A stretch of 64,000 nucleotides of DNA from an uncultured bacterium (GTDB lineage Bacteria; CAZDME01; JAYEMH01). Below, piece after piece: positions 642 through 52,888 of this stretch. The notes under the pieces were generated by a model. The model saw only the letters and a program-made list of their open reading frames with translations. It searched no databases and had not been told where the DNA came from. The translations under genes and the position numbers were made by a program. Numbering within the stretch: the first letter of the stretch is position 1; each line of letters opens with the position of its first letter. Location of the stretch: the NCBI GenBank assembly GCA_964506075.1, contig CAZDKO010000004.1, positions 134 through 64,133 on the forward strand, given 5' to 3'.

Positions 642-674
642 TTTGTTTTGGTTTCCGTCAAACATCATGGCGGA

Positions 675-696
675 CCCGCCAAAGCTTTTTGGCGGG
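675..696. repeat. GC-rich perfect hairpin (9-bp stem CCCGCCAAA/TTTGGCGGG, 4-nt loop); short member of the GC-rich element also at 37725-37772 and 48352-48399
   Basis: Read directly. The core GCTTTTTGGCGGG is identical at 684-696, 37737-37749 and 48364-48376. A GGTTAA-word array follows at 699-726. Confidence 0.8.
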
Positions 697-37720: not shown

Positions 37721-37912
37721 ACCGCCTGCCCGCCACGCTTTTTGGCGGGCCTGCCTCGCCTTTTGGCGGGTGGTTTCTGCTTTCTATAATAGATATAGAC
37801 CCTATAATATAAAAGCGGGAGTTAAAAGTCAAGGGAAAAGCCTTTGTCGGTTAACCGGTCAAATTAGTTTACCGGTTGGCCAGTTAGCCGGTTATCCGGT
37901 TTGCCGGTTAAT
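37721..37912. repeat. Composite spacer: 48-nt GC-rich element (37725-37772) plus CCGGTT-word array (37848-37912)
   Basis: GCCCGCCA (37728-37735) pairs with TGGCGGGC (37743-37750). 43 of 48 nt match 48352-48399. The 22-mer at 37888-37909 matches 22370-22391. Confidence 0.9.
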
Positions 37913-39288: not shown

Positions 39289-39600
39289 TTAGTAGTCAGT
39301 GGTTATCGGTTAACCGGTTAGCCGGTTTACCGGTTTAACTAAAATGCCTAATTCTAAAATGACTAATAAGAAAACAGAAACCAGAGTACAGAGAACAGAA
39401 AAAATTCTATTTTGGTCATTTGAGCATTTAGACATTTATTCGTCATTACCTGCCTGCCGCCCGCCTGTCACCTGCCTGTCGGCAGACAGGGAGTACAGTT
39501 TACAGAAAAAAATTATTTTAAAAGTTCTAATCTGTTCTCCGCACCCTATTTTTTTTACTTTGTTTTTTTCTGTTATCCGTAATCTGTTATCTGTTCTCTA
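39289..39600. repeat. 312-bp nested spacer: CCGGTT words, ACAGA/TCTGTT inverted heptamer arms, central GC-rich CCTG-word hairpin
   Basis: GAGAACAGA (39391-39399) is complementary to TCTGTTCTC at 39531-39539 and 39590-39598. CTGTTAT CCGTAAT CTGTTAT CTGTTCT spans 39570-39597. CCTGTC-GGCA-GACAGG spans 39475-39490. Confidence 0.85.
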
Positions 39601-40293: not shown

Positions 40294-42221
40294 AATGACT
40301 CCTTTCTTACCCGCGCCGGACTATTGACTACCTCAATAATATAGTCCCCGTTAAACTTTTCTTTTATTTTTAAAGACCCATCAAATTCAGAAAGCTGAGT
40401 TTTAATTCTTCCTGTTTGTTCTTCATCAATCATCTTAAAATGAACTATTACGTACTTAATCCCCAGAGCATTCAAAAGCTTTACCGAATCAACGTTCGGA
40501 AATTGCTGCAACACCTTATTCATCGGCCAGTAAGAAGGCGGGAAAAATCCGCTATAGCCGTTAACCAAATTTTTCCAGTGGTAGATTGACCAGTACATAT
40601 ACATACATTCATAATAAACCCTGGAGGCATCTACCGGCATCGGTAATTCTACAATTGAAAAATTTCCTTTTTGTTCAGCCAGCCAGCGGCAAAAATAGGG
40701 GGTCTCTATATTAACCTTGTCATAATTAATAGGAATGTAAATTGATTCACAGATTAATAAAGCTAAAAACAATCCCCCTGTTCCCCATTTTAATACGGTT
40801 TGTTTTTTTTGAAAAGAATTAAAAACCCTCTTAACTCCAAACCCGGCTAATACGCTTAAAGAAAAAATAACCAAGCATCCCCAGCGGGCCGGCACGCGCA
40901 GGCCCGCAAACCCGGGGATATGATTGTAAAGAAAAAGGTACGGTAGATTAATTAATTTCTGATTATCGCTGCCGAGTAAAGCCGGGCCTAAAGAAAAAAT
41001 GAAACTGAACAAAGCCAGCGTCAGATAAAGGTTACCCCGGTAAGACAGAGCTATAAATCTTTTCCTGTCCCGGCTATTCAACCAGCGCAGGATAACCAGA
41101 AAGACGCATATATAAACAGGATTCCTGAGAGAATGGATACTAACGTTAAATAAAGCCGTCTTGAAATCAAATCCTCCCCATTTTTGCAGGACAACTATTA
41201 ACAGGCAATTAAATAATATAAAAACATCCAGAATTTTGTTAAATTTTACCCTGAATTTTTTAATCTCCCCTTCTTCTTTTTTACCTTTTATTCTGAAAGT
41301 AGCCATAACGGCTAAAAGTAAGACCGTTATTCCGGGAAAGAGCTGCGCTTCTCCGGAGACGAACTTCTCGGTTAATTTTCCCAAAAGCCTGTTTCCGGTC
41401 GGGGTAGCCAGATAATTTGATGGCCGGGCCGAATATAGTTCTACTTCACTGAGGTTTCTCTTAAATTGCATTTCTTTTTTAAATTTGTAATAAGGATAAA
41501 AGAACGGAAAAAGAATTAATCCGGTTAATGCTCCGGCAGAGACTAACATCAAAAATTTCTTCCGGTTGATTTTTCTGTTTAGAATAAGAAAAATAAAACT
41601 GATTAATATAACCACACTCAGGAAAAAAGCGTAATAACTGCAAGAAAGAGCCTGAAATATGAAAAAAACCGCCAGAAGAATCAGGTCCAGGATTTTATTC
41701 TGCTCAATGAATCTATGAAAAAATAAAAAGGTAAAGGGAATCCATTGCATGGTTAAAACCTGCAGATGCCCCAGATGACCAAAACGGAAAGGACAAAAGG
41801 CAAAAATAAATCCGGATAAAAAGGCTCCGAATCTGTTCCCGGTCAAATGAAAAACCAGGCAATACATACCCAGGCCGGAAAGCACAAAGCTTAAGATAAA
41901 AAGAAAATTATAAATGAAAATCGGCTCTCTGGTGACGAGAAAAACCGGCAGGGCTATAACGGCCTGGGCAATAAGATGGTCTGAATAAGCCAGGGTATTG
42001 GTATCGGGATAAAAAATATTGGCGTCAAAAAAATTACTCGCCCCGGTCAGAAACTTATGGATATCCCAGTTCAATATCCAGACGTTTAAAAGAGGGTCTC
42101 CCAGGTTTTTAACGTAATGCTCCATCCCGGTAACTAAAGGATAAGTAGCCAGCAAAGAATAAACGATAAAAAATAAAATTACCAGAAAAGAGATAAGCAT
42201 TTTTTTCATTATTAACCTCAT
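40290..42221 (-). CDS. Polytopic membrane protein, GT-C-like (same family as 46025-47776)
   Basis: 643 aa. LLATYPL...LGDPLLNVWILNW follows TM1, then at least 10 TM helices and a C-terminal soluble ~150 aa. ATGA overlap with the upstream gene. Confidence 0.5.
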   Translation of the reverse strand: MRLIMKKMLISFLVILFFIVYSLLATYPLVTGMEHYVKNLGDPLLNVWILNWDIHKFLTGASNFFDANIFYPDTNTLAYSDHLIAQAVIALPVFLVTREPIFIYNFLFILSFVLSGLGMYCLVFHLTGNRFGAFLSGFIFAFCPFRFGHLGHLQVLTMQWIPFTFLFFHRFIEQNKILDLILLAVFFIFQALSCSYYAFFLSVVILISFIFLILNRKINRKKFLMLVSAGALTGLILFPFFYPYYKFKKEMQFKRNLSEVELYSARPSNYLATPTGNRLLGKLTEKFVSGEAQLFPGITVLLLAVMATFRIKGKKEEGEIKKFRVKFNKILDVFILFNCLLIVVLQKWGGFDFKTALFNVSIHSLRNPVYICVFLVILRWLNSRDRKRFIALSYRGNLYLTLALFSFIFSLGPALLGSDNQKLINLPYLFLYNHIPGFAGLRVPARWGCLVIFSLSVLAGFGVKRVFNSFQKKQTVLKWGTGGLFLALLICESIYIPINYDKVNIETPYFCRWLAEQKGNFSIVELPMPVDASRVYYECMYMYWSIYHWKNLVNGYSGFFPPSYWPMNKVLQQFPNVDSVKLLNALGIKYVIVHFKMIDEEQTGRIKTQLSEFDGSLKIKEKFNGDYIIEVVNSPARVRKESF

Positions 42222-42910: not shown

Positions 42911-44851
42911 TTATTTTAGGGATAAATGTTTTATAAGGTCCTTATAATAACAAAGAAAGATAACAATAATGGCTACCCAGAATACCGTCAAAGGATATGT
43001 AAAATCGTTAACCTTTAAAAAATCAGGAAAAATAACCTTAAGGTTAATAAAATTATCAAAACAGGGCACCAGGGGGTGCTGGTAACGGTAAAGGAGACCC
43101 GGGTGCCACATACTGTAACTGCTTATCAATATACCCGTCATGCCCAACAGGAGTGAGGTAAACCGGAAAGCACCGTTTTTAATTTTACATAAACTATAGC
43201 TGACCGGGAAAGCCAGAAGAGGAGCAACTGGCATCATATAACGAGTCGGAGGAGCCATCCCCCCTGTCCAACCCCTGAAAATGCCGGTTAAAATATAGTT
43301 AGCGAAAACAATCAACCACAGCCATAACCAGTCCCGGTTTTTATTCTTATCTTTAAACCATACAAATAAACCGGTAAGTGAAAGGATGTATATCGGAGAA
43401 TATAAAAAAAGACCCTGGTTCCGGTCCAACAAAAGACCGGGAAGACCGTATTTTAAACCATAGGTAAAAGACAGAAAGGGATGAGTGGTGACCGGATAAG
43501 CCGTCCCGAAAAGAAGATTATAATACCATGCCTGTAATATAAAGGATATAATCACCGGTAACATTAATATGGCGACTGGTCGGAACGAAAACTTTACCCT
43601 GGACATAAAATAAGCCATTAATATAATTGAAGTCAGGATAAAACGTTCGTGCAACCAGGGTAAAAATCCAATGACCAACCCGGCTAAAATAAACTTTAAG
43701 GATTCGCCTGCTTTAAGATTTCTTATTTGCCTGAAGGCAAAAATAATAAGTAACCCCGCGATAAGGTCAGGGAATATTTTATTACAATAGAATAAAACCG
43801 GGGCGGTAAAAGATAAAAATAACCAGGTTAATAAAGAATTGAATTTATCACCGGTCACTTCAAAACTTAAGGAGTATATGTTTAACGCTATTAAAGCCGT
43901 GCAGAGATTCAAAAATAACATCATCATAAACCTGATTCTTAAATTCCATTTGAATCCGGTAAAATAAGCCGGCCCTAAAATCAAAGGCAGTCCGACCCGA
44001 TGTACGGAATACTCTTTCCCCTCCCAGAATTTTTCCCGCGGGCTGAGTCTACCTTGAGTCAACTGGTTAAAATACTCAAAACCGGGAGCATGCCCGTCAA
44101 TCGGCCGTTTCTCAAAAGATTTCCAGTCTTCCCGCAACTTATTATTAAATAAATTAAAATCCCGGTCAAAGATTAAACTATGGGCTATTAAAAGATAATG
44201 GGGTTCGTCTCCGGTTAATAAATAATACTTGCGCGCGTCCCGGGGGTTCGGCGATATAATATGCAGGGTAAAAAACAGATAGGTTAAGAAAGAAATCGTG
44301 AAGACTAAACTTTTAACCCGTCTCTGACTCAACCGATTAATCAAACTTAAACATTTCTCCGATGATTTTCTATCCTGAATAATGGACTTTAAAAACCGGT
44401 ATTTTAAAGAAATAATTCCAAGGAACGAAGCTAAAATGAGAATACCCCCTACGGATTGCCCCAGAAAAATGCCGAAATTTCTTAACCATTCCGGCCCGGG
44501 GGAAAATTGAAGAAGGAAGAATAAAAGGAATAAAGTCGGCAGATAACTAGAAGCATCCTGCTTCAAGCTAAAAACAAATTTTACTTTGGCTGCACGGGAT
44601 ATTATAAAGGAATAAAACACCCAGAAAATCAAATAAGCAGAAATAATCAGAGCCACATATTTTAACAATAAAACCCCCGGGGGAAGAATCCATAAACTTA
44701 GAGGTTCAAAGTTGGAAAGCTGAAAATTAAAAAACTGAAAACTTCTAACCCATAAAAATATTCCTAAAACTGAACCGGATAAACATACGGTTATGATTGA
44801 AAATAAAATCCCTAGATGATTTTCTTTAGATAATATAGCCCTATCCCCCAT
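42911..44851 (-). CDS. Polytopic membrane protein, GT-C-like (GDEPHY motif)
   Basis: 646 aa with at least 12 TM helices. LLTGDEPHYLLIAHSLIFDRDFNL is an acidic loop motif after the early TMs, as in PMT_2/ArnT-type enzymes. Confidence 0.5.
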   Translation of the reverse strand: MGDRAILSKENHLGILFSIITVCLSGSVLGIFLWVRSFQFFNFQLSNFEPLSLWILPPGVLLLKYVALIISAYLIFWVFYSFIISRAAKVKFVFSLKQDASSYLPTLFLLFFLLQFSPGPEWLRNFGIFLGQSVGGILILASFLGIISLKYRFLKSIIQDRKSSEKCLSLINRLSQRRVKSLVFTISFLTYLFFTLHIISPNPRDARKYYLLTGDEPHYLLIAHSLIFDRDFNLFNNKLREDWKSFEKRPIDGHAPGFEYFNQLTQGRLSPREKFWEGKEYSVHRVGLPLILGPAYFTGFKWNLRIRFMMMLFLNLCTALIALNIYSLSFEVTGDKFNSLLTWLFLSFTAPVLFYCNKIFPDLIAGLLIIFAFRQIRNLKAGESLKFILAGLVIGFLPWLHERFILTSIILMAYFMSRVKFSFRPVAILMLPVIISFILQAWYYNLLFGTAYPVTTHPFLSFTYGLKYGLPGLLLDRNQGLFLYSPIYILSLTGLFVWFKDKNKNRDWLWLWLIVFANYILTGIFRGWTGGMAPPTRYMMPVAPLLAFPVSYSLCKIKNGAFRFTSLLLGMTGILISSYSMWHPGLLYRYQHPLVPCFDNFINLKVIFPDFLKVNDFTYPLTVFWVAIIVIFLCYYKDLIKHLSLK

Positions 44852-45351
44852 AATCCACCTAAACTATTAAACATGATATCCCGGAGATCCCAGAAACGAT
44901 AAGGTAAAAATAATTGAAAAAGTTCATCAAAAAAACCGATAGTAAGGACAAAAAGCCAGGCAAAGCCGACTCCGTAGGTTCCTTTTTTATTTTTAGTGAT
45001 TAAATCCCGGCTGGCAAACCAGCCCAGCAGGCCGAACTCCAGGATATGGATTCTTTCCTGCGGTAGTTTCATCTGCCAGGCTAAACCTAATCCGGTTATC
45101 AGTAATACCAGCAATAGCAGATTTTTCTTTAAACCCGGGGTATCCTTTAGAAAGAAAAAAAGAAAAGCCAGTCCGGCTAAAATAAGTATTAGCCCGATTA
45201 AAATAACAAACGTTTCTTCCCCGTAACAGCCTGTGAACCCCTCCATTAACTGCCGGGTAAAAAGAGAAGAAAAAATAATGAATAAACTGAAGAATATCGT
45301 TATTTTAGAAATTAGCTTAAAAAGGTGACAGGCTACTTTTCCGTTTCTCAT
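44812..45351 (-). CDS. VanZ-like family membrane protein
   Basis: 179 aa with 4 TM helices. FFDELFQLFLPYRFWDLRDIMFNSLGG is the VanZ signature. Its ATG shares one base with the RAYT stop (TAATG). Confidence 0.7.
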   Translation of the reverse strand: MRNGKVACHLFKLISKITIFFSLFIIFSSLFTRQLMEGFTGCYGEETFVILIGLILILAGLAFLFFFLKDTPGLKKNLLLLVLLITGLGLAWQMKLPQERIHILEFGLLGWFASRDLITKNKKGTYGVGFAWLFVLTIGFFDELFQLFLPYRFWDLRDIMFNSLGGLWGIGLYYLKKII

Positions 45352-46013
45352 TATGTTCCTTTTTTTGGCCTTCCTCTTGATCTAAGGGTAGATTCCAATC
45401 CCAGTTTTTTACTTACTTGCACTTGCCATCTTAATGTACCATAGGGAGATTGACGATGAACACTCTGACGAATGTTCTGTAATTCTTTCTCTGTTAGTGG
45501 TTCATCTACATATCTATTCCAATTTTGAGTCAGTTCTATGGGAGTTTTATCAACCAAGAAGGGCGACTTTTCACCAATAAGCTCTCTATGAGAAGACCAT
45601 ATCCACTCCTTAGCCGAACCAACCAAAGCAGCCCTCACTGGGTTAACCTCAACATATCTCATCACTGTCAGTAAATGATTGTCATTTTGTATAATAAAAC
45701 TCTTAAAACGTCCTTGCCAAATATGCCCACTAGATCCATAATGCCGATGATAACGGCGCACATGACTTGTCAGCAGCCATTGCATAGATTTGCTTAGTTC
45801 TTCAGCCTGAACAGGCATCACAACTAGATGAAAATGGTTTGGCATTAAACAATATGCAAAAATTTTTATGGCATACTGAGCTTTTGTTTTCACCATTAAA
45901 TCAATGAAAGCCTCATAATCCTGATCTTTATGAAAGACTACTTGCTTGCCATTTCCACGGTTAAGCACGTGATAAATAAAACCACTCCTTAAACCTCTTG
46001 TAATCCTTGGCAT
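45351..46013 (-). CDS. REP-associated tyrosine transposase (RAYT), IS200/IS605 TnpA-like HUH/Y1 enzyme
   Basis: 220 aa. YHVLNRGN, CLMPNHFHLVV (HUH) and RYVEVNPVRAALV (catalytic Tyr motif). The ORF is intact. The 663 bp contain no CCGG tetramer, although CCGG is very frequent in the flanking genes. Confidence 0.85.
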   Translation of the reverse strand: MPRITRGLRSGFIYHVLNRGNGKQVVFHKDQDYEAFIDLMVKTKAQYAIKIFAYCLMPNHFHLVVMPVQAEELSKSMQWLLTSHVRRYHRHYGSSGHIWQGRFKSFIIQNDNHLLTVMRYVEVNPVRAALVGSAKEWIWSSHRELIGEKSPFLVDKTPIELTQNWNRYVDEPLTEKELQNIRQSVHRQSPYGTLRWQVQVSKKLGLESTLRSRGRPKKGT

Positions 46014-46024
46014 GAGTTATCCCC

Positions 46025-47776
46025 CTAATTAAAAGTAGCCTGTCCCCTTTTTATTTGATAGATCCTGGCTTCGGGAAAATCTTTAATGAATTTTAAATCC
46101 TCGGTGTTATCGAGAATAGATAAAGCTTTATCATCATAGACATCCTTATGAACAATTAAATAATTTACGCCTAATTTACTTAAAACAGAAAAACTCTGAG
46201 GGTTTAAAATATCCAAAACTGTTTTTCTTATCTCCTCCCCTTTTGAACCGGCAGGAGCCCCGTTAATCATTTTTTTCTGATGGACCCTCTGATAAAAAAG
46301 ATACCGGTAATGATTTTCATTTATCCAGTCATATAAAGGATATTCAGCTATGACTATATCGGCTGGTTCTTCAGCCAACCAGCTATACACCGGCGGAACT
46401 TTACGAAAATCCACGTTGCGGAAAGGAGGGATAACCGTATATTCAAAAAGTATCAGCCCGGAAAAAACCAAAGATAAAAAAATCTGCTGAGATCTTTTTT
46501 TAATTCTTAAAATAATATTTCTTAAGCCGAAAGCAGCTAATACGGCTACAGAAAGTATAACCAGAATTCCTACCCGGGCATTAACTCTGAACATCGGGAA
46601 AAAACGATAAAGGAAAAAAGAAGGGGTCGGTATTTTTATTTTCCATAATTTAATGACTGGAGCCAGAGAAAAATAAAAAGAAAAAAACGCTGTTAAAAGA
46701 AAAAACGGAACGTAAAAATTCTCTCCGGGTTCAATTAACTTTTGCCGGTGATGCCCTATCCACCCCCATACCCCTACCACCGCTAAAAGTAAAGGCACTA
46801 TTCCCAGATAGAGTGTGGTTTCCGACCAATATCTTCTTCCTCCGGTAACTTTCTCTATTATTTTTTTAGTAAAGTTACCGAATAGCGGATGGTATTCACT
46901 GGGCAAAATGTAATCATAAGGTTTAGCTGCGTAACGGAAGAGGTCAGTATAGGGCTGAACGTATTTGATAAAACTCGTTGTTTGCTCCGAAGGAAGAATT
47001 ATGTTTTTTATCGTCTGGTAAGTCGAAGGCAGAAGCAATAAAACAACAATCAATAGCGTAAACATCACTATTTTAAAGTTTTCTAATCTTTTCTTGGAAC
47101 TAACTTCATATTTTCTGTTAAACAATTTATATATAATTTTAAACAAAAAGAAAGCGGCGGTAAATAAAACCATAAAATAGCCGTAATAGAAAGAGCTGAG
47201 CGTCAAAAGGACAAAACTCAAGGCTAAAAAAAGACCGTTCCGGTAAGATTTTCCCCCGGCAAATTTAAATAAAATAAGGATATAAAGAGGCATCCATTGA
47301 ATTGCCGCTAAACCAAAATGAGAAAAGGCCTTAAGTGAATGGTAGGGGCAAAAAGAAAAAATGATACCCGCCATCATACTTCCCAATTTTTCCCTGGTTA
47401 AATAAAAAACCAAGTAATAAGTTATAATGGCAGAAAGAATGAAACTGGCCAAGATAAAAAAATTGTAAGCGAAAAATTCATTTTGCCATAGGGAAAGAAA
47501 AAGCATTGGATAAGATAAACAAGGCTGGGTCACTTCCCCGCTCATATCTAAACCGGAAGGATAAGCGATTAAATGATTGAAAGTAACCGGATATTTATTT
47601 AACCAGGCGAATTTTGCCCACCAGATGCTGTAAAGAGACCCGAGGGAATCAAATGTCCAAGCCGGGTCACCGAAGATGCTGTGATTTATTTTTAACACAA
47701 GAGGATAAGTGATTATTAAGCTTAGCAAAATAAAAAAAGAGAAAATGATTATTTCTCCTTTTTTAAAATTAAACAT
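46025..47776 (-). CDS. Polytopic membrane protein, GT-C-like (same family as 40290-42221)
   Basis: 583 aa. LIITYPL...FGDPAW...YSIWW follows TM1. Multi-TM, with a C-terminal soluble domain ending in a GVNYLIVHKDVY region comparable to GIKYVIVHFKMI in 40290-42221. Confidence 0.5.
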   Translation of the reverse strand: MFNFKKGEIIIFSFFILLSLIITYPLVLKINHSIFGDPAWTFDSLGSLYSIWWAKFAWLNKYPVTFNHLIAYPSGLDMSGEVTQPCLSYPMLFLSLWQNEFFAYNFFILASFILSAIITYYLVFYLTREKLGSMMAGIIFSFCPYHSLKAFSHFGLAAIQWMPLYILILFKFAGGKSYRNGLFLALSFVLLTLSSFYYGYFMVLFTAAFFLFKIIYKLFNRKYEVSSKKRLENFKIVMFTLLIVVLLLLPSTYQTIKNIILPSEQTTSFIKYVQPYTDLFRYAAKPYDYILPSEYHPLFGNFTKKIIEKVTGGRRYWSETTLYLGIVPLLLAVVGVWGWIGHHRQKLIEPGENFYVPFFLLTAFFSFYFSLAPVIKLWKIKIPTPSFFLYRFFPMFRVNARVGILVILSVAVLAAFGLRNIILRIKKRSQQIFLSLVFSGLILFEYTVIPPFRNVDFRKVPPVYSWLAEEPADIVIAEYPLYDWINENHYRYLFYQRVHQKKMINGAPAGSKGEEIRKTVLDILNPQSFSVLSKLGVNYLIVHKDVYDDKALSILDNTEDLKFIKDFPEARIYQIKRGQATFN

Positions 47777-48026: not shown

Positions 48027-51000
48027 TTATTTACCTTTTTTAAGCCTGGTAACGTAAAATATATAACCGAACACACAGATTAAGAAGGTTAATATTGAAA
48101 TAAACATACCCGCATAAAAAAATGACTGGGGTAAGAAATAAAGCACCAGAGTAAAATCTTCCGGCAATCCCATTACTTTCGGATCAATGTACCAGCCGTT
48201 AGCATAGCCGTTAATCAGGAAATGCCTTCCTTCATTTATATCTTCGGTAAATAAAAACTTAATATCTCCGGGCGTAAATTTCATCGAAGGTTTAATTTCC
48301 TTCACCCCGTATTTCGGATATTCCGCCACAATCTCCTCAGTTTCTGTTCTCCCTGCCCGCCAAGCTTTTTGGCGGGCCTGCCTCGCCGACAGGCGGGTGT
48401 CATCCGTACTCTGCAGATATGCCTTCCACTGATTATGAAAAGTTTCACTGAAGATCAGCCAGAACGGTTCTTTCTCTTCAATGTTTATTATATATTTAGT
48501 CGGATTAACTTTCCTAAATTGAACTTGGGGACCTCTATAATTATCACTGGGTTGATAATTCGTTTTACCGGGAGTCTCCATCATTACCCAGTCTACCGTA
48601 AACTCATCATCATCAATCCAAGTAAACTTATGCTCTCCCTTATCCAGATGTATATTTTCCTTCAGCCACATATTCTCTTTAGCATCTTCCTTATCTTTAA
48701 TCTTTTTCTCAAGGTAATACTTTTTCCCGTCTATTCTGAAGACGGGTTTATGAAAAACAAAGTCCCCTGGAGCAACCAGAGAATGCGAATAAACTCTCAA
48801 TTGTTTAAAAGGAAAGGGAGATCTGTCATCCGAACGTAACTTTACTTGAATCAGATTAAACTCTTTACCTGCCGGATAGATATCCTTGGCCAGTTCGTAG
48901 ATATTGAGCGTCAATCTATCTTCATATTCCGGAAAAGTAAGATAATTAAAAAGTATATTTTTATCAACTTTATTATCTCCATCAAAATCCAAATCAAGCA
49001 TAAGTTCGACGCTATCTTTACTGTGCTCTTTGTCTTTATATCTTAATTCTAACATCGGAAATTCCTTAAGATTTATTTTATCAATTGACCTGGACAATTC
49101 TAAATATGCCCATGGTTTAACTTTAGCAAATTCTTCCCCATACGTTTTAAGCACATGCCCTTTATATATCTCTTTAGTTGTCCACTTTTCGATTTCCTCT
49201 TCTACCCTGAAATCTATGTTAAGAGCCTCCTGAAAAAACTCTAGATATTCCTCGGGATAGTAATTATAAAATTTGAATCCCTTAATCCAAAATTTATATT
49301 CTTTCTTTCTGTCCTTGCTGGTACAGTCCGTCCGCCATAATTTATGAGGATTAAGCTCTAAATGTAATAATTCATAATGCCTCTGGTCAGGAAAGTTTCT
49401 TTTAGCTTTGGTATAAAGGTCATAAGTAAAGTGAGCCCAACTCTGCGAAGCCCGATCTGGACATATTCCCCGGATATAACCGTCTATGTTTCCATCAGCG
49501 TCCAAATCTATTCCGGCTACCACCTCCATTGTTTGTATCCCCGGATCTTCAACCCTATACACTAAATCAAAATAAGGGAACTCTTTAAGATCGACTTTGA
49601 ATTTCCGCGTTTGTATATTGACAAATTCATCCTCCTTGCTATCTCCATCAAAATAAACAGATAAAACGAAAATTCCATCTTCATCGGTAGAATAATCATA
49701 AGTTACCCTTAAAGGACGCATAGTCCAATTTTTTAATTCTTCTTCTACGCCCAATTTTAATTCCGGACCCATTTTCTTCTTCCGAACAAAAGAAAAATGC
49801 GGCGTTACCATAGCCTTAAGAATATAATCGCCAGCCCTGGGAAGATAAAAGCTACCATCAACAGCTAAAATAGATTCCCCTTCAGTTTCAGGTTTATTTA
49901 TGAATTCCCATAATTCCTTGTTCTCTTCACCAACTACCTCCGTGAAATCATACCAGCGGGTGTTATAAAAACTTATACTCTGGGGATTTCCAGATATCTT
50001 TTTTCTCTCTGTTTTTTTCTCCGAATCATATCGCGGTTTTCCGTCTAAAAATATATTCAAGGCTGTTTTCTTTTTTTCTTCGTCTGAGACCGCTGGTCCT
50101 CTGGAAGCGTAAATATTTGGTAAGATTTTATCAACTTTATAAAAATCCCACTTACCAAAACTTCTATCCAGAGAAATATCTTTCTGAAACTTCAATCTCT
50201 CTTGAATAAACTGAGGGGAATCATTATCTCCTGACCAGTTATAAGTAAAATCGTTACGCTGAAGCAAATAGCGAACGTTTAAAATCTTTAACAGATTATC
50301 CAGACGGGGACTATAGTCTTTGTATAAACAGGTCTGGAAAAAATGATATAGATTATCCAGTGAACGAGGGGGCGCCATACCTTCTCCGTACTGCCTAAAA
50401 ACAATACCTTTATTGAAAAGTTTGACGGTTATATCTTCAGCACCGCCGTAGCCCCAATCATAGGCATTGGCTTTATCGTCCGGGAGGATAAGGATATTAA
50501 ACTGGGTCGACTGGTTGTTTATCCACTTTGCGGCTTCAAATAAATACGCGGGGTAATCCTGATGAAATCCCGGCAGAACCTGGCGTTCCTCTGTTGTCGG
50601 CAACATCCGGCCAAAGATAAACCCATAGTTATAGATTAAATAGATGCCGAATATAAGGACTATAGCGGTGACAAGTAAGAATCTGACGAAAGTCTTCAGG
50701 AACAATTTGCTGATTCTACTTTTTAAAAACTCGTAAATGTAACCGATGGTTATTCCCGCTAAAAATGCGTAACTAACCATCATAAGCAAGCCAAATTTCT
50801 GCCACGGCGCCCGATAAACCCAGAATCCAGGAATGTTTTTAAAAGCCCAGAGAAATAAATCTCCCAGCGGTTCATGTATCCCTTTACTGATAAAGGTTGC
50901 ACCGAGAGCCAGAAGGGTAAAAAATATTGTATAACGGTAGTTCCGTTCACGAACAATAACTGCAGCATAAGCCAAGATGGGAAATAAAAAACTCAAGATA

Positions 51001-51980
51001 ATTAAAAATGGATTGGTAAGGTATCTGGTAAAAAAAGGCAGATAAGGGACGTTCTTGTACCCGTCAAACCAGATATTGTCTCCGTAAAGTCTCATTACGT
51101 TAAGGAAGCTGTTTGTTCTGCCACTGGTTGCCTCCAGGAGTCCCCTCAGGTTAAAAATAGCATCCATGTTTTCAAAACTGCCTGAAGCATAATTGGATTG
51201 AACGGTAAAATTGGCAATTGGTAGTATCCAGAAGGCATTGATTAAAAAGAAAAAGATTAAAAATGCAATGAAAAAAACTATATTACTGAAAATCCTTCTC
51301 TCTTTAATCACGCCGGTTAATGAAAGAAGCAGGTGATAGATAAAATAAGCAGCTATGGCAATGAAAAAAACTCCTAAAACCGGCGGCTGCACTCCTATAC
51401 CTGAACCGAATAAAAAGAAGATCGCCAATATCATAAAACATTTGCTGAGAGGAACCTCCCCTTCCAGACTTTTAATCAGAAGTCCTAAAGAAACCGGGAT
51501 TAAAATGGCTCCCGATAGTTCTCCTATCCGGGCTATCATCCAGATGTGAAGCTGATAGAAATTAATCATATAAAATATCGTCGCTGAAACACGGATAATT
51601 TTATCTTTAACAGTATCCCCTTTAACCAGAAGAGACATCAGTATATACATAGAAATACCGGTCAGGGCAAACCAGAAAATAAAACTTAATTTCTGCACGT
51701 TAAGGAGATTAAACCCCAATAATTTGAAAAAAGCTTGGACGCCTATAAAAGCAAATCCGCCCGGTATATCCATGGAACGGTCGTTACCGGCCAGGTAGAG
51801 AGTTGACCAAGTGAACTTCCTCTCTATAAATCTCCGAATCGGTTCCAGCGGCGCATCGAAATCGACTCCGCCGATAAGAAGTCCGGGCGGGTTATACCAC
51901 AATAAGGGGATGGCGCTGAGAATAAAAATAGGTATCAGCTCAGCCAGTCTTAATCTTTTTATAAAAGGTTCCTTAATCAT
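48027..51980 (-). CDS. Giant polytopic membrane protein, AftD/DUF3367-like GT-C candidate, with large extracytoplasmic region and C-terminal TM anchor
   Basis: 1317 aa. The N-terminal ~460 aa are multi-TM (LLIGGVDFDAPLEP..., YQLHIWMIARIGELSG). The soluble region contains an internal duplication with DLDxDGxxD motifs. A C-terminal TM is present. Paralogue of 52888-55764. The family assignment rests on remembered architecture and is not a search result. Confidence 0.55.
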   Translation of the reverse strand: MIKEPFIKRLRLAELIPIFILSAIPLLWYNPPGLLIGGVDFDAPLEPIRRFIERKFTWSTLYLAGNDRSMDIPGGFAFIGVQAFFKLLGFNLLNVQKLSFIFWFALTGISMYILMSLLVKGDTVKDKIIRVSATIFYMINFYQLHIWMIARIGELSGAILIPVSLGLLIKSLEGEVPLSKCFMILAIFFLFGSGIGVQPPVLGVFFIAIAAYFIYHLLLSLTGVIKERRIFSNIVFFIAFLIFFFLINAFWILPIANFTVQSNYASGSFENMDAIFNLRGLLEATSGRTNSFLNVMRLYGDNIWFDGYKNVPYLPFFTRYLTNPFLIILSFLFPILAYAAVIVRERNYRYTIFFTLLALGATFISKGIHEPLGDLFLWAFKNIPGFWVYRAPWQKFGLLMMVSYAFLAGITIGYIYEFLKSRISKLFLKTFVRFLLVTAIVLIFGIYLIYNYGFIFGRMLPTTEERQVLPGFHQDYPAYLFEAAKWINNQSTQFNILILPDDKANAYDWGYGGAEDITVKLFNKGIVFRQYGEGMAPPRSLDNLYHFFQTCLYKDYSPRLDNLLKILNVRYLLQRNDFTYNWSGDNDSPQFIQERLKFQKDISLDRSFGKWDFYKVDKILPNIYASRGPAVSDEEKKKTALNIFLDGKPRYDSEKKTERKKISGNPQSISFYNTRWYDFTEVVGEENKELWEFINKPETEGESILAVDGSFYLPRAGDYILKAMVTPHFSFVRKKKMGPELKLGVEEELKNWTMRPLRVTYDYSTDEDGIFVLSVYFDGDSKEDEFVNIQTRKFKVDLKEFPYFDLVYRVEDPGIQTMEVVAGIDLDADGNIDGYIRGICPDRASQSWAHFTYDLYTKAKRNFPDQRHYELLHLELNPHKLWRTDCTSKDRKKEYKFWIKGFKFYNYYPEEYLEFFQEALNIDFRVEEEIEKWTTKEIYKGHVLKTYGEEFAKVKPWAYLELSRSIDKINLKEFPMLELRYKDKEHSKDSVELMLDLDFDGDNKVDKNILFNYLTFPEYEDRLTLNIYELAKDIYPAGKEFNLIQVKLRSDDRSPFPFKQLRVYSHSLVAPGDFVFHKPVFRIDGKKYYLEKKIKDKEDAKENMWLKENIHLDKGEHKFTWIDDDEFTVDWVMMETPGKTNYQPSDNYRGPQVQFRKVNPTKYIINIEEKEPFWLIFSETFHNQWKAYLQSTDDTRLSARQARQKAWRAGRTETEEIVAEYPKYGVKEIKPSMKFTPGDIKFLFTEDINEGRHFLINGYANGWYIDPKVMGLPEDFTLVLYFLPQSFFYAGMFISILTFLICVFGYIFYVTRLKKGK
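48352..48399. repeat. In-frame copy of the 48-nt GC-rich hairpin element inside the 1317-aa CDS
   Basis: CCTGCCCGCCAAGCTTTTTGGCGGGCCTGCCTCGCCGACAGGCGGGTG shares 43 of 48 nt with 37725-37772. The 9-bp stem pairs 48355-48363 with 48369-48377. It is translated as ...TRLSARQARQKAWRAG.... Confidence 0.85.
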
Positions 51981-51994
51981 TATTCCTCTTCTTT

Positions 51995-52888
51995 CTAACA
52001 GATTTTTTTAAGACAGGTAACGTTAACCCCGACTGCCAGAGGACTATTTTTGAAAATTTCTGATTCATAAAAAGCTATAGTCGCCAGTGGTTTATTAATG
52101 GCTACCCAGCAATCCTTCAATCCTCCTAAAAACAGGCGGATGATTTTGGGTTGACTGTTATTCTTTATAGATGTCTGACGGTCCCGGCAGGAATCCATTG
52201 TTTCTTTCCCGAAAAAAAACAAAATAAAATCTTTGACCACGTATAAGGAAAAATACGTTAAAACCTGTCCAAAAGCGTGCTTGCTGTATCTTTTCCTGTT
52301 TATTTTGAAACCAGCTTTTTCCAAAAGATTAAATAATTCTTTAGATGATAATTTCTGGATGTGCCCGACGTGTTTTCGGGTCAATCTGTTTGCTCCCACC
52401 CAGAAAAATGGAGTATACCAGTTACCTTCGCAGGGAACGTAAGCGTGAAATGTTCCGCCCGGCTTCAAAACGCGGAATATCTCGTTTAAAACAACGAGTA
52501 CATCATTTACGTGTTCCAACACGTCAATGACAACGACTATGTCAAAACTATCGTTGTCATAAGGCAGTTTTTCGGCGGCGGATACTTTATATTCAACTTT
52601 TCCCCCGGATTTTTTCTCGGCATTAGCGATATAAAGATTGCTTAAATCGCAGCCATAGCAGTCAAGCTCTCCTCTGGCTGATTTAACCGCCTGGATAAAC
52701 CCGCCGCTTCCACACCCTACTTCCAGAACTTTTCCCTTCCTGACTTTACTGATGCCTTCCAGGAAACGTAAGAGCCTCGTCCGAGCCAGGGTTTTAGTAC
52801 CGAAGGCAGCTTCGGGAGTACCCATTTCATATTTCTCATAATCGTAATAGTCGTCCCGCTTAATATCATTCATAATTAAAGTATCCAT
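51995..52888 (-). CDS. Class I SAM-dependent methyltransferase
   Basis: 297 aa. VLEVGCGSGGF (motif I), DIVVVIDVLEHV, LKPGGTF. Confidence 0.8.
   Translation of the reverse strand: MDTLIMNDIKRDDYYDYEKYEMGTPEAAFGTKTLARTRLLRFLEGISKVRKGKVLEVGCGSGGFIQAVKSARGELDCYGCDLSNLYIANAEKKSGGKVEYKVSAAEKLPYDNDSFDIVVVIDVLEHVNDVLVVLNEIFRVLKPGGTFHAYVPCEGNWYTPFFWVGANRLTRKHVGHIQKLSSKELFNLLEKAGFKINRKRYSKHAFGQVLTYFSLYVVKDFILFFFGKETMDSCRDRQTSIKNNSQPKIIRLFLGGLKDCWVAINKPLATIAFYESEIFKNSPLAVGVNVTCLKKIC

What the first reader, a model, noticed from the sequence alone, without database searches (positions are those of the whole stretch)
37725..37772. 48-nt GC-rich hairpin element (REP-like) present in 3-4 copies in an AT-rich background
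CCTGCCCGCCACGCTTTTTGGCGGGCCTGCCTCGCCTTTTGGCGGGTG (37725-37772) matches 48352-48399 at 43 of 48 positions. A shorter hairpin-only copy lies at 675-696 (9-bp perfect stem). A related CCTG-word version in the opposite orientation lies at 39448-39492. All contain a GCCCGCCA(A)/(T)TGGCGGGC stem. Small GC-rich imperfect palindromes dispersed in intergenic DNA are the defining property of REP elements, and an intact RAYT, the enzyme family proposed to mobilise REPs, is encoded at 45351-46013. I cannot verify a link between them from this window.
Basis: partly seen in the sequence, partly recalled or inferred. Interest (0 to 1): 0.6.

Follow-up and report, generated by a model that had tools for sequence, protein, structure and literature searches.

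The report
Two merged tiny GC hairpin elements
The 48-base repeat is two tiny GC-rich hairpin units joined head to tail, members of a widespread family of 21-25-base elements that sit in spacers, RNA genes and even protein genes without breaking them; the nearby transposase-like gene has its own, different end repeats and shows no tie to them.

Summary
The repeat is real. 37725-37772 and 48352-48399 match at 43 of 48 positions, 675-696 is a hairpin-only relative, and the source metagenome holds one further full copy. The site at 39448-39492 belongs to a different hairpin family.

The 48-mer is a merger of two modules. One is CCTG plus a 21-nt hairpin (CCCGCCA-loop-TGGCGGG). The other is a 21-nt unit, CCTGCCTCGCC-NNNN-GGCGGG. 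A related strain lacks exactly the second unit. In another Omnitrophota genome the same 21-mer is a clean insertion in one of three paralogous repeats.

Copy B lies in frame inside a 1317-aa membrane-protein gene. The hairpin recurs in at least 20 Omnitrophota genomes. It is found in spacers, at a riboswitch stem tip, and in the D-loop of tRNA fragments next to small GIY-YIG nuclease genes.

The 21-mer occurs in at least 120 metagenome contigs. There it often adds exactly seven codons to housekeeping genes such as gatB, a cysteine desulfurase gene (nifS/iscS type) and leuS.

The RAYT link is not supported. That gene carries its own 13-nt terminal inverted repeats (a published "TIRtron") and never neighbours the hairpins.

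The closest known relatives are cyanobacterial small dispersed repeats, yeast mitochondrial GC clusters, and intragenic REPs and RPEs. I rate it a new variant of a known kind. How it moves is unknown.

The parts
37725..37749 (.). Copy A, unit 1: CCTG tag plus 21-nt hairpin b (CCCGCCA CGC TTTTT GGCGGG), with an 8-bp stem.
   Evidence: The same tag-plus-hairpin is found in MAGs of several phyla.
37750..37772 (.). Copy A, unit 2: 21-nt CCTGCCTCGCC-TTTT-GGCGGG, then TG. It lies 24 nt upstream of the wzm start (37700, minus strand).
   Evidence: The relative in run X4 lacks exactly 37750-37770. The relative in X3 has a better copy of unit 1 here instead.
48352..48376 (.). Copy B, unit 1: CCTG plus hairpin b (9-bp stem), inside ORF 48027-51980 (minus strand).
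48377..48399 (.). Copy B, unit 2: CCTGCCTCGCC-GACA-GGCGGG, then TG. Together the 16 codons of B read TRLSARQARQKAWRAG on the minus strand.
   Evidence: It differs at one base from the 21-mer inserted in L011 and from the metagenome consensus.
48343..48412 (.). The 70-nt block that B shares with a third copy seen only in runs X1/X2 (6 mismatches). It includes CTGTTCT-type heptamer words on both sides of the 48-mer.
   Evidence: (records 2, 6, 10 and loose ends).
654..696 (.). Copy C: double hairpin a+b (TCCGTCA..TGGCGGA, then CCCGCCAAA GCTT TTTGGCGGG) in the spacer between a SIR2-like gene and a nuclease gene.
   Evidence: z = -5.8. It aligns with the same double hairpin in 8 loci of other MAGs.
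39448..39492 (.). A different GC-rich island. Its core is the palindrome CCTGCCTGTCGGCAGACAGG (39471-39490), lying between inverted AGAACAG/CTGTTCT heptamer arrays. It is not a copy of the 48-mer.
   Evidence: (I4).
48027..51980 (-). Host gene of copy B: a 1317-aa AftD-like GT-C membrane protein. B sits in a length-variable loop between the conserved W+xY and EIVAEYP motifs.
37804..37832 (-). Promoter-like site (TTGACT, 17 nt, TATTAT). If real, it places copy A in the 5' UTR of wzm. This is a consensus match only.
45324..46047 (-). NOT part of the hairpin family. This is the RAYT-like gene (45351-46013) with its own terminal inverted repeats, 46035-46047 (GTAGCCTGTCCCC on the plus strand) and 45324-45336 (GTAGCCTGTCACC on the minus strand). 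It is a TIRtron/TIRYT unit.
   Evidence: The published motif GGGGWSAS is in PMC3733652.

Best explanation
The 48-mer is not one element. It is a head-to-tail merger of two ultra-short GC-rich hairpin modules.
- Module 1 is a CCTG tag plus a 21-nt hairpin ('b': CCCGCCA-loop-TGGCGGG).
- Module 2 is a 21-nt unit, CCTGCCTCGCC-NNNN-GGCGGG.

Both belong to families kept almost letter for letter in many uncultivated bacteria (Omnitrophota, Patescibacteria and others). They behave as small non-autonomous insertion modules.

Shown:
- They are gained or lost as exact units between strains and between paralogous repeats.
- They occur alone, in tandem and merged.
- They carry no stop codon in any of the six frames.
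- They persist where extra hairpin-forming sequence is tolerated: AT-rich heptamer-array spacers (copies A, C and the third copy), loops of structured RNAs, and surface loops of proteins (copy B; seven-codon insertions in gatB and a cysteine desulfurase gene, and, by ORF reading only, leuS and others).

Inferred:
- B reached the gene as a block of about 70 nt copied from a spacer copy, by break repair or gene conversion.
- The family is propagated in trans. The best candidate driver is the small catalytic-domain-only GIY-YIG nuclease cassette found at tRNA genes, whose end carries the same hairpins. Stand-alone hairpins would relate to it as MITEs relate to a parent transposon. I give this sub-claim about 0.3.
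- The RAYT in the window is not the driver.
- At copy A the hairpins probably lie in the wzm 5' UTR and may incidentally affect the stability of that mRNA.
For: Anatomy: each copy folds as two adjacent hairpins. Unit 2 aligns to unit 1 as a degenerate copy (sequence).

Unit-exact gain and loss:
- The X4 relative lacks exactly 21 nt (37750-37770), and the X3 relative carries a different second unit.
- In one Omnitrophota MAG the 21-mer CCTGCCTCGCCGGCAGGCGGG is present in L011 and absent from its paralogous repeats L016 and L017.
- GatB P0160 has exactly 7 extra residues compared with 13 relatives at 76-93% identity.
- The cysteine desulfurase ORF of L188 has exactly 7 extra residues compared with PDB 9wep_A.

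Dispersal:
- The hairpin b pattern hit 70 loci in the species-representative genomes. 23 are titled Omnitrophota or Omnitrophica, from about 20 MAGs, against about 13 hits expected by my uniform-composition arithmetic.
- The CYTG tag is present on 11 hairpin instances in 9 sources (8 loci plus the window), from several phyla.
- The 21-mer pattern hit at least 120 metagenome contigs, all with different flanks. The free 4-nt loop reads GGCA in 65 of 123 matches.

Coding copies:
- 56 of 107 hits in contigs under 56% GC lie in open frames of 600 nt or more. 42 of these 56 are read as PASPAGG or PPAGEAG.
- For comparison, 61% of random positions in the same contigs lie in such frames, so the elements are not enriched in coding DNA.

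Copy B: the AftD-like homologues have a length-variable loop there, and the closest ones are 12-13 residues shorter.

B and the third copy share heptamer-word flanks over 70 nt.

GIY-YIG link:
- The only ORF family recurring near the hairpins is a small GIY-YIG protein, in 10 of the 70 loci and 4 of the 120 loci.
- It is often 10-50 nt from the hairpins and beside duplicated tRNA fragments whose D-loop holds the hairpin(s).
Against: - No transposition event, direction of change or enzyme activity is shown. Every indel could be a loss rather than a gain.
- No target-site duplication or conserved target was found. There is only a T bias at -2 and Y at +1.
- The window has no GIY-YIG gene and no tRNA gene.
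- Only three full 48-mers exist in the source metagenome, so this genome shows little amplification.
- At B the host loop varies in length across the family, so the exact inserted length is not proven.
- My search patterns fixed the stems, so stem conservation across genomes is partly built in.
- Near-identical hairpins in distant phyla could also reflect a shared host function.
Confidence: 0.6

Rival explanations
1. REP/REPIN elements mobilised by the RAYT encoded at 45351-46013.
For: A Y1/HUH gene is present and intact. The units have the general substrate shape of Y1 transposases, a 4-nt unpaired tag next to a GC hairpin. The RAYT's repeat GTAGCCTGTCCCC shares 8 of 10 letters (GCCTGYCCNC) with the start of copy A, from my own reading of the sequence, which is weak. 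Y1 genes occur in 5 of the 120 contigs that carry the 21-mer.
Against: The RAYT is flanked by its own 13-nt inverted repeat in the window and in 8 of 8 fetched homologous loci, and none of those loci holds a CCGCC..GGCGG hairpin. That repeat is absent from all 70 hairpin loci. No RAYT ORF lies in those loci. The Y1 genes near 21-mers each have their own different flanks and are not bordered by the 21-mer. There is no GTAG or CGTC tag. The units are direct, not inverted, doublets. The published equivalent of this gene is a TIRYT, whose cognate repeats are its TIRs (PMC3733652).
Confidence: 0.07
2. Host-functional hairpins, such as an mRNA 5' stabiliser, a processing or termination signal, or a protein-binding site. 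On this view selection keeps them, and the copies reflect function rather than mobility.
For: Copy A lies between a promoter-like site and the wzm ribosome-binding region. Hairpin b forms the tip of a c-di-GMP-I riboswitch stem in L032. Hairpin a shows two compensatory pair changes across genomes. The sequences are conserved across a phylum.
Against: Loops and linker are conserved between A, B and the third copy, which points to common descent rather than convergence. One copy lies inside a coding region, and dozens of 21-mers lie inside housekeeping ORFs in both orientations. Units differ in presence between close relatives. There is no T-run on the transcribed strand, so this is not a classical terminator. 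No Rfam family matches.
Confidence: 0.15
3. There is no dedicated mobility. The hairpins are passengers of the heptamer/octamer spacer arrays, spread and resized by replication slippage, template switching and ectopic recombination between arrays.
For: The third copy, the 39448 island and many metagenome copies sit inside short-period arrays. B carries array words on both sides. Unit number varies like a tandem repeat at A. An array-like 17-residue insert (KKSDFFGALKSDFKESEA) lies in the same L188 cysteine desulfurase ORF.
Against: Many 21-mers stand alone as exact 7-codon insertions in unique coding sequence with no array nearby. The same 21 letters recur in Omnitrophota and Patescibacteria, which slippage within one genome cannot give.
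Confidence: 0.13
4. Assembly or sequencing artefact.
For: None found.
Against: Copies A, B and C are reproduced in independent assemblies of two runs, and A also in related strains from two other studies. The same units occur in NCBI MAGs and in JGI and ENA contigs.
Confidence: 0.01

Closest known systems
Small dispersed repeats (SDR1-8) of heterocyst-forming cyanobacteria. Elhai et al. 2008, Genome Res 18:1484. The reference was seen in the list of PMC3116915. The paper is not held, so the content is from my own knowledge.
   Same: Units of 21-27 nt that form hairpins. They are often embedded in tandem heptamer arrays, are found merged or nested, and are present or absent at otherwise identical sites. 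No transposase of their own is known.
   Different: A different phylum and unrelated sequences. Here the same units cross phylum borders and are common as in-frame 7-codon insertions in housekeeping genes. Here there is also an association with GIY-YIG/tRNA cassettes. I could not check how far the SDR paper covers coding insertions.
GC clusters of yeast mitochondrial DNA (Wu and Hao 2015, PMC4478555).
   Same: GC-rich palindromes in AT-rich DNA. Stand-alone and merged forms occur at homologous sites, a small unit (GC18) lies inside a larger one (GC42), copy number varies between strains, and the mechanism is unresolved, with intron endonucleases as suspects.
   Different: Those are in an organelle, not bacteria. 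They show a putative AG target duplication, and none was seen here. The sequences are unrelated.
GTAG- and CGTC-tagged REPs, including intragenic REPs (Di Nocera et al. 2013, PMC3733652), and REPIN-RAYT systems (Bertels and Rainey 2011, PMC3116915).
   Same: Palindromes of 20-40 bp with an unpaired 4-nt tag at one end. Some lie inside ORFs, including tRNA synthetase and repair genes. CGTC REPs also lack a dedicated transposase.
   Different: The tag here is CCTG/CTTG. The units are direct tandems rather than inverted doublets. The full 48-mer has few copies here: three in the source metagenome. No copy flanks the RAYT. REP families are mostly specific to a species or genus, whereas these units are shared between phyla.
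Rickettsia palindromic elements (RPE; Ogata et al. 2000, from my own knowledge; mentioned in PMC3733652).
   Same: Palindromic selfish DNA that is read through in frame inside protein-coding genes and also occurs in RNA genes.
   Different: The classic RPE-1 is much longer (my own knowledge: about 100-150 bp), and RPEs are confined to Rickettsia. The units here are 21-25 nt and occur in several phyla.
TIRtron / TIRYT (Di Nocera et al. 2013). This applies to the neighbouring RAYT gene only.
   Same: A Y1/HUH tyrosine transposase gene bracketed by terminal inverted repeats that carry the motif GGGGWSAS. The window has GGGGACAG.
   Different: Nothing notable. It appears to be an ordinary member, inserted in an operon so that neighbouring ORFs read into the repeats.

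Membership tests
REP/REPIN-RAYT system | Short (20-40 bp) imperfect palindrome. | tested here: met
REP/REPIN-RAYT system | Conserved unpaired GTAG (or CGTC) tetranucleotide at one end. | tested here: not met
   The tag is CCTG/CTTG on 11 hairpin instances in 9 sources, and absent on the others. No GTAG or CGTC is present.
REP/REPIN-RAYT system | Copies in the immediate flanks of the RAYT gene. | tested here: not met
   The RAYT flanks are a different 13-nt inverted repeat in the window and in 8 of 8 homologous loci, with no hairpin motif there. No RAYT lies in the 70 hairpin loci.
REP/REPIN-RAYT system | Predominantly inverted doublets (REPINs). | tested here: not met
   The units in A, B and the third copy are head to tail in the same orientation.
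REP/REPIN-RAYT system | High copy number and extragenic location in the genome. | tested here: inconclusive
   There are three full copies and at least two more hairpin b copies in the source metagenome, and one copy is intragenic. The whole genome could not be searched.
TIRtron/TIRYT (for gene 45351-46013) | Y1/HUH transposase fold. | tested here: met
   Pfam PF01797 at 55 bits. The HUH and Tyr motifs are visible in the translation.
TIRtron/TIRYT (for gene 45351-46013) | Terminal inverted repeats flanking the gene, with the motif GGGGWSAS. | tested here: met
   GGGGACAGGCTAC / GTAGCCTGTC(A/C)CC at 46047-46035 and 45336-45324. The definition is in PMC3733652.
Cyanobacterial small dispersed repeats (SDR) | Dispersed hairpin-forming units of 21-27 nt. 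| tested here: met
   Units of 21 and 25 nt.
Cyanobacterial small dispersed repeats (SDR) | Often embedded in tandem heptamer arrays; nested or merged copies. | tested here: met
   array flanks; tandem and merged units, for example L102 and L060.
Cyanobacterial small dispersed repeats (SDR) | Present or absent at otherwise identical sites. | tested here: met
Cyanobacterial small dispersed repeats (SDR) | Sequence membership in SDR1-8, and restriction to a cyanobacterial subgroup. | not testable with these tools
   The paper is not held. The hosts here are Omnitrophota and Patescibacteria, so this is at most an analogue.
Rickettsia palindromic elements | Read through in frame inside ORFs. | tested here: met
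Rickettsia palindromic elements | Element length of about 100-150 bp (RPE-1); host genus Rickettsia. | tested here: not met
   Units of 21-25 nt (48-70 nt merged) in Omnitrophota and other phyla.
Intrinsic (rho-independent) terminator | GC-rich stem followed by a T-run on the transcribed strand. | tested here: not met
   Terminator-like matches occur only on the plus strand at A, where no gene ends. The genes here are on the minus strand, and no T-run follows the hairpins there.

The most novel reading that the evidence does not exclude
The CCTG-tagged 21-25-nt hairpins are the non-autonomous passengers of a cross-phylum mobile system. Its autonomous form would be a catalytic-domain-only GIY-YIG nuclease cassette that homes into the D-loop-coding part of tRNA genes. 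The hairpins would be its end structure, copied into new sites by nuclease-initiated repair. Being open in all six frames, they can colonise essential genes. That would make them among the smallest mobile DNAs in bacteria, with a defined enzyme partner.
Probability: 0.25. Interest if true: 0.8.

Novelty: new variant of a known kind. Interest (0 to 1): 0.55.

Why it matters
The case shows that spacer repeats and in-frame gene insertions in an Omnitrophota genome are the same small modules. It also shows that these modules are shared with very distant bacteria (Patescibacteria), where they add seven residues to essential enzymes.

If their driver can be identified, the long-open question of how sub-30-nt repeats move (cyanobacterial SDRs, mitochondrial GC clusters, CGTC REPs) becomes testable with defined oligonucleotide substrates.

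Practically, the modules create spurious ORFs, false 'repeat proteins' and assembly breaks. They also give strain-level markers.

The work also corrects a tempting mis-annotation: a RAYT-like gene near GC hairpins does not make them REPs.

Tried and rejected
I substituted read and contig laying and one scan each of the genome and metagenome collections.
- The window's own genome did not appear among the genome-contig hits.
- Rfam: no family covers the hairpins.
- RNA evidence: no RNA run holds the locus.
- Idea that the 21-mer sits at the tip of locus-specific longer stems: not general. Mean flank pairing is 2.7 against 2.6 in controls.
- Target-site duplication: none found. CCTG/CTTG on both sides of hairpin b occurs only where another tagged unit follows.
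- Terminator reading: rejected for the transcribed strand.
- GC-rich hairpin at 40874-40917 as another in-frame insertion: rejected. The paralogue keeps the same RVxARxG motif with only a 3-residue gap.
- Other GC-rich islands in the window are ordinary coding sequence.
- The paralogue 52888-55764 is too diverged at the B site to serve as an empty site.
- No close orthologue of the 1317-aa protein exists in the protein collection; the best is 44-46% identical.
- Elhai 2008 could not be read.
- One literature search was wasted on the word 'heptameric'. A search for GIY-YIG, tRNA and palindromic elements returned only fungal mitochondrial papers.

Full report
OBSERVATION

The two 48-nt stretches are as reported. 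37725-37772 and 48352-48399 differ at 5 positions, one in the first loop and four in the second loop. The 23-nt first stem-loop has no chance match in 100 shuffles of the window. CCGCCA-N3-9-TGGCGG occurs three times against 0.01 expected. Only six distinct GC-rich hairpins with perfect stems of 7 bp or more exist in the window, and three belong to this family. As single strands, both orientations of A and B fold into two adjacent hairpins, with z = -3.4 to -4.1.

The hairpin at 675-696 is real: a 9-bp stem with loop GCTT. It is the second half of a double hairpin at 654-696.

The fourth 'copy' at 39448-39492 shares only CCTGCC words. Its core is another palindrome, CCTGCCTGTCGGCAGACAGG. That palindrome has several copies of its own in the source metagenome and occurs letter for letter next to a tRNA gene in another Omnitrophota MAG (L009).

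Copy B is not intergenic. It lies in frame in the 1317-aa AftD-like gene 48027-51980 and is read as TRLSARQARQKAWRAG.

ANATOMY

Each 48-mer is CCTG + CCCGCCA-loop-TGGCGGG (25 nt), then CCTGCCTCGCC-NNNN-GGCGGG (21 nt), then TG. Both units have the plan 'CCTG, then a CC(C/T)CGCC / GGCGGG stem'.

Four public runs hold the locus or relatives of it. In the two wastewater runs that hold the window, only one further full copy exists. It lies between CTGTTCT-type heptamer arrays, and it matches B over 70 nt (48343-48412) with 6 mismatches. B therefore carries array words on both sides.

At locus A, the landfill relative in run X4 lacks exactly 37750-37770, which is unit 2. The relative in run X3 has in its place a near-perfect second copy of unit 1. 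The unit, not the 48-mer, is what varies.

At least one more copy of hairpin b with its array flank exists in the source runs.

COPY B

Homologues of the host protein (best 44-46% identical) show a length-variable loop between W+xY and EIVAEYP. The window protein has 26 residues there, and the two closest homologues have 13-14.

This fits an insertion but does not prove it. The in-window paralogue is too diverged to help.

ELSEWHERE: HAIRPIN b

A scan of one genome per species with CCCGCCA-N1-3-GSTTTTTSGCGGG gave 70 loci, against about 13 expected by my uniform-composition arithmetic. Of these, 23 are titled Omnitrophota or Omnitrophica, from about 20 MAGs.

- In 8 loci the hairpin is preceded by the same first hairpin as in copy C, TCCGCCACAAAGCGTGGCGGA. 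That first hairpin shows two compensatory pair changes.
- On 11 hairpin instances in 9 sources (8 loci plus the window), from several phyla, the hairpin carries the 5' tag CCTG or CTTG.
- Contexts include spacers and the tip of a c-di-GMP-I riboswitch stem, where 18 nt stand in place of a 4-nt loop.
- The hairpin also stands at the end of a truncated tRNA-Pro copy.
- Repeatedly it sits in the D-loop position of duplicated tRNA fragments that stand beside a small GIY-YIG nuclease gene and an intact tRNA (L051, L008, L031, L060, L063, L033).
- That GIY-YIG protein is the only ORF family that recurs near the hairpins, in 10 of 70 loci.
- In the Omnitrophota loci hairpin b is mostly outside long ORFs.

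ELSEWHERE: THE 21-MER

In one Omnitrophota MAG a repeat of about 200 nt occurs three times. One copy (L011) has CCTGCCTCGCCGGCAGGCGGG as a clean 21-nt insertion, one letter different from unit 2 of B.

All have different flanks, and most are 31-50% GC. The free loop reads GGCA in 65 of 123 matches. With GGCA, the fold CCTGCC/GGCAGG is preferred.

Of 107 matches in contigs under 56% GC, 56 lie in open frames of 600 nt or more, always as seven extra codons. In 42 of these 56 the reading is PASPAGG or, in reverse, PPAGEAG. For comparison, 61% of random positions in the same contigs lie in such frames, so the elements are not enriched in coding DNA. Neither this unit nor hairpin b has a stop codon in any frame (direct reading).

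By my reading of the ORF translations, the hosts include LeuRS, an Ile/Val-type tRNA synthetase, GatB, PheT, a B-family DNA polymerase, H+-pyrophosphatase, MutL and a cysteine desulfurase. Only GatB and the cysteine desulfurase were checked against named homologues.
- The cysteine desulfurase aligns to PDB 9wep_A with a gap of exactly seven residues at PASPAGG.
- GatB aligns to solved structures with a gap at the insert.
- The carrier GatB (495 aa) has exactly seven more residues than its 13 nearest relatives. These are 76-93% identical and 488-503 aa long. The few that carry source names (P0174, P0183) are labelled Patescibacteria or Candidatus Yanofskybacteria.

The family therefore crosses phylum borders and has entered an essential gene recently.

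THE RAYT

The protein has thousands of relatives at 65-80% identity in many phyla. In the window and in all eight fetched loci it is bracketed by the same 13-nt inverted repeat, GGGGACAGGCTAC ... GTAGCCTGTCCCC, set in A and T runs. In those genomes the unit is wedged co-directionally into housekeeping operons.

The repeat fits the GGGGWSAS motif of published 'TIRtrons', in which a TIR-associated tyrosine transposase takes the place of a REP-flanked RAYT (PMC3733652).

- The repeat occurs nowhere else in the window beyond chance and in none of the 70 hairpin loci.
- The RAYT loci hold no CCGCC..GGCGG hairpin.
- No RAYT ORF lies in the 70 hairpin loci.
- Y1 genes found in 5 of the 120 contigs with the 21-mer have their own, different flanks.

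The proposed REP-RAYT link is therefore not supported.

HOW IT MOST LIKELY WORKS

Shown:
- Unit-exact presence/absence differences.
- Merged and stand-alone forms.
- Near-identical units in unrelated sites and in distant bacteria.
- Persistence in loops of proteins and RNAs.

Inferred:
- These are non-autonomous selfish modules that survive wherever a hairpin or seven extra small residues are tolerated.
- B arrived as a block of about 70 nt copied from a spacer copy by recombinational repair.
- The driver acts in trans. The best lead is the GIY-YIG/tRNA cassette whose end carries the same hairpins, so solo hairpins would be its miniature derivatives. I give this about 0.3.
- A Y1 enzyme acting in trans, passive spread by array slippage and recombination, and a host function remain possible.
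- At A the hairpins lie between a promoter-like site and the wzm start and could affect that mRNA. This is untested.

COMPARISON AND NOVELTY

The behaviour matches four known kinds:
- Cyanobacterial small dispersed repeats of 21-27 nt in heptamer arrays (from my own knowledge; the reference was seen).
- Yeast mitochondrial GC clusters, with stand-alone and merged forms.
- Intragenic tagged REPs.
- RPEs.

The kind is therefore in print.

What I did not find described is this particular set of units: the CCTG tag, the 21-nt six-frame-open unit, sharing between Omnitrophota and Patescibacteria, and the tie to GIY-YIG/tRNA cassettes. Earlier notes of this scan report the same 21-mer and the same cassette link in other genomes. 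I re-derived both independently before reading those notes, but they are not independent proof.

Verdict: a real feature, a new variant of a known kind, with the mechanism open.

LIMITS

- My patterns fixed the stems, which inflates the apparent conservation.
- The direction of the indels is not polarised.
- No RNA data exist for the locus.

Noticed in passing
window 45324-46047; loci L071-L078: The RAYT-like gene is a compact TIRtron of about 724 nt with 13-nt inverted repeats. The upstream host ORF (46025-47776) ends inside the left repeat (..KRGQATFN*). The called start of the VanZ-like ORF (44812-45351) lies over the right repeat. The same unit, with 65-80% identical protein, sits between leuB and asd, or between a DHOD-like and a gltD-like gene, in other genomes. 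It therefore looks like an operon-invading cassette.
   Followed up: partly
L051 3975-4464; L008 700-880; L031 5950-6300; L060 290-760; L063 3460-3860; L079 2950-3450: A recurrent module: a tRNA 5' fragment or copy whose D-loop position holds one or two GC hairpins (three different hairpin families), a small GIY-YIG ORF of about 80-100 aa, and an intact tRNA of the same species. It looks like a tRNA-targeting nuclease cassette.
   Followed up: partly
L032 505-606: A c-di-GMP-I riboswitch whose distal stem ends in hairpin b, with 18 nt where the model has a 4-nt loop. A second riboswitch in the same locus lacks it.
   Followed up: partly
L188 (cysteine desulfurase ORF), L155 (PheT ORF): The same ORFs that carry the 21-mer have further low-complexity inserts. 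Examples are KKSDFFGALKSDFKESEA, which is absent from PDB homologues, and HPELVSGSGF in PheT. They look like translated short-period arrays or other hairpin families.
   Followed up: no
window 39343-39600; runs X1-X3: The AGAACAG/CTGTTCT heptamer arrays and the CCTGCCTGTCGGCAGACAGG palindrome each match many other contigs in the source and related metagenomes, with summed depth up to about 9 times the flanks.
   Followed up: partly
L031 6649-6850; L064 2681-2894: Group I introns lie within a few hundred to a few thousand bases of hairpin b in two loci. In L031 the intron is close to the GIY-YIG/tRNA module.
   Followed up: no
Homologues P0007, P0010, P0014, P0016, P0024 of the 1317-aa protein: The loop that holds copy B is a hot spot for low-complexity inserts in other homologues too, for example KIKNQKSKIKEENFD and RAGGKVGRWESEKVSRERRVGSG.
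   Followed up: no
window, whole: The hexamer CCTGCC/GGCAGG occurs 38 times against 11 +/- 3 in mononucleotide shuffles, with a strand bias of 24 to 14. Codon usage was not controlled for.
   Followed up: no
L011 1550-2250, L016, L017: One Omnitrophota MAG has a repeat of about 200 nt in three copies, built around the a+b double hairpin. One copy has two extra hairpin modules, of 21 nt and about 50 nt.
   Followed up: partly
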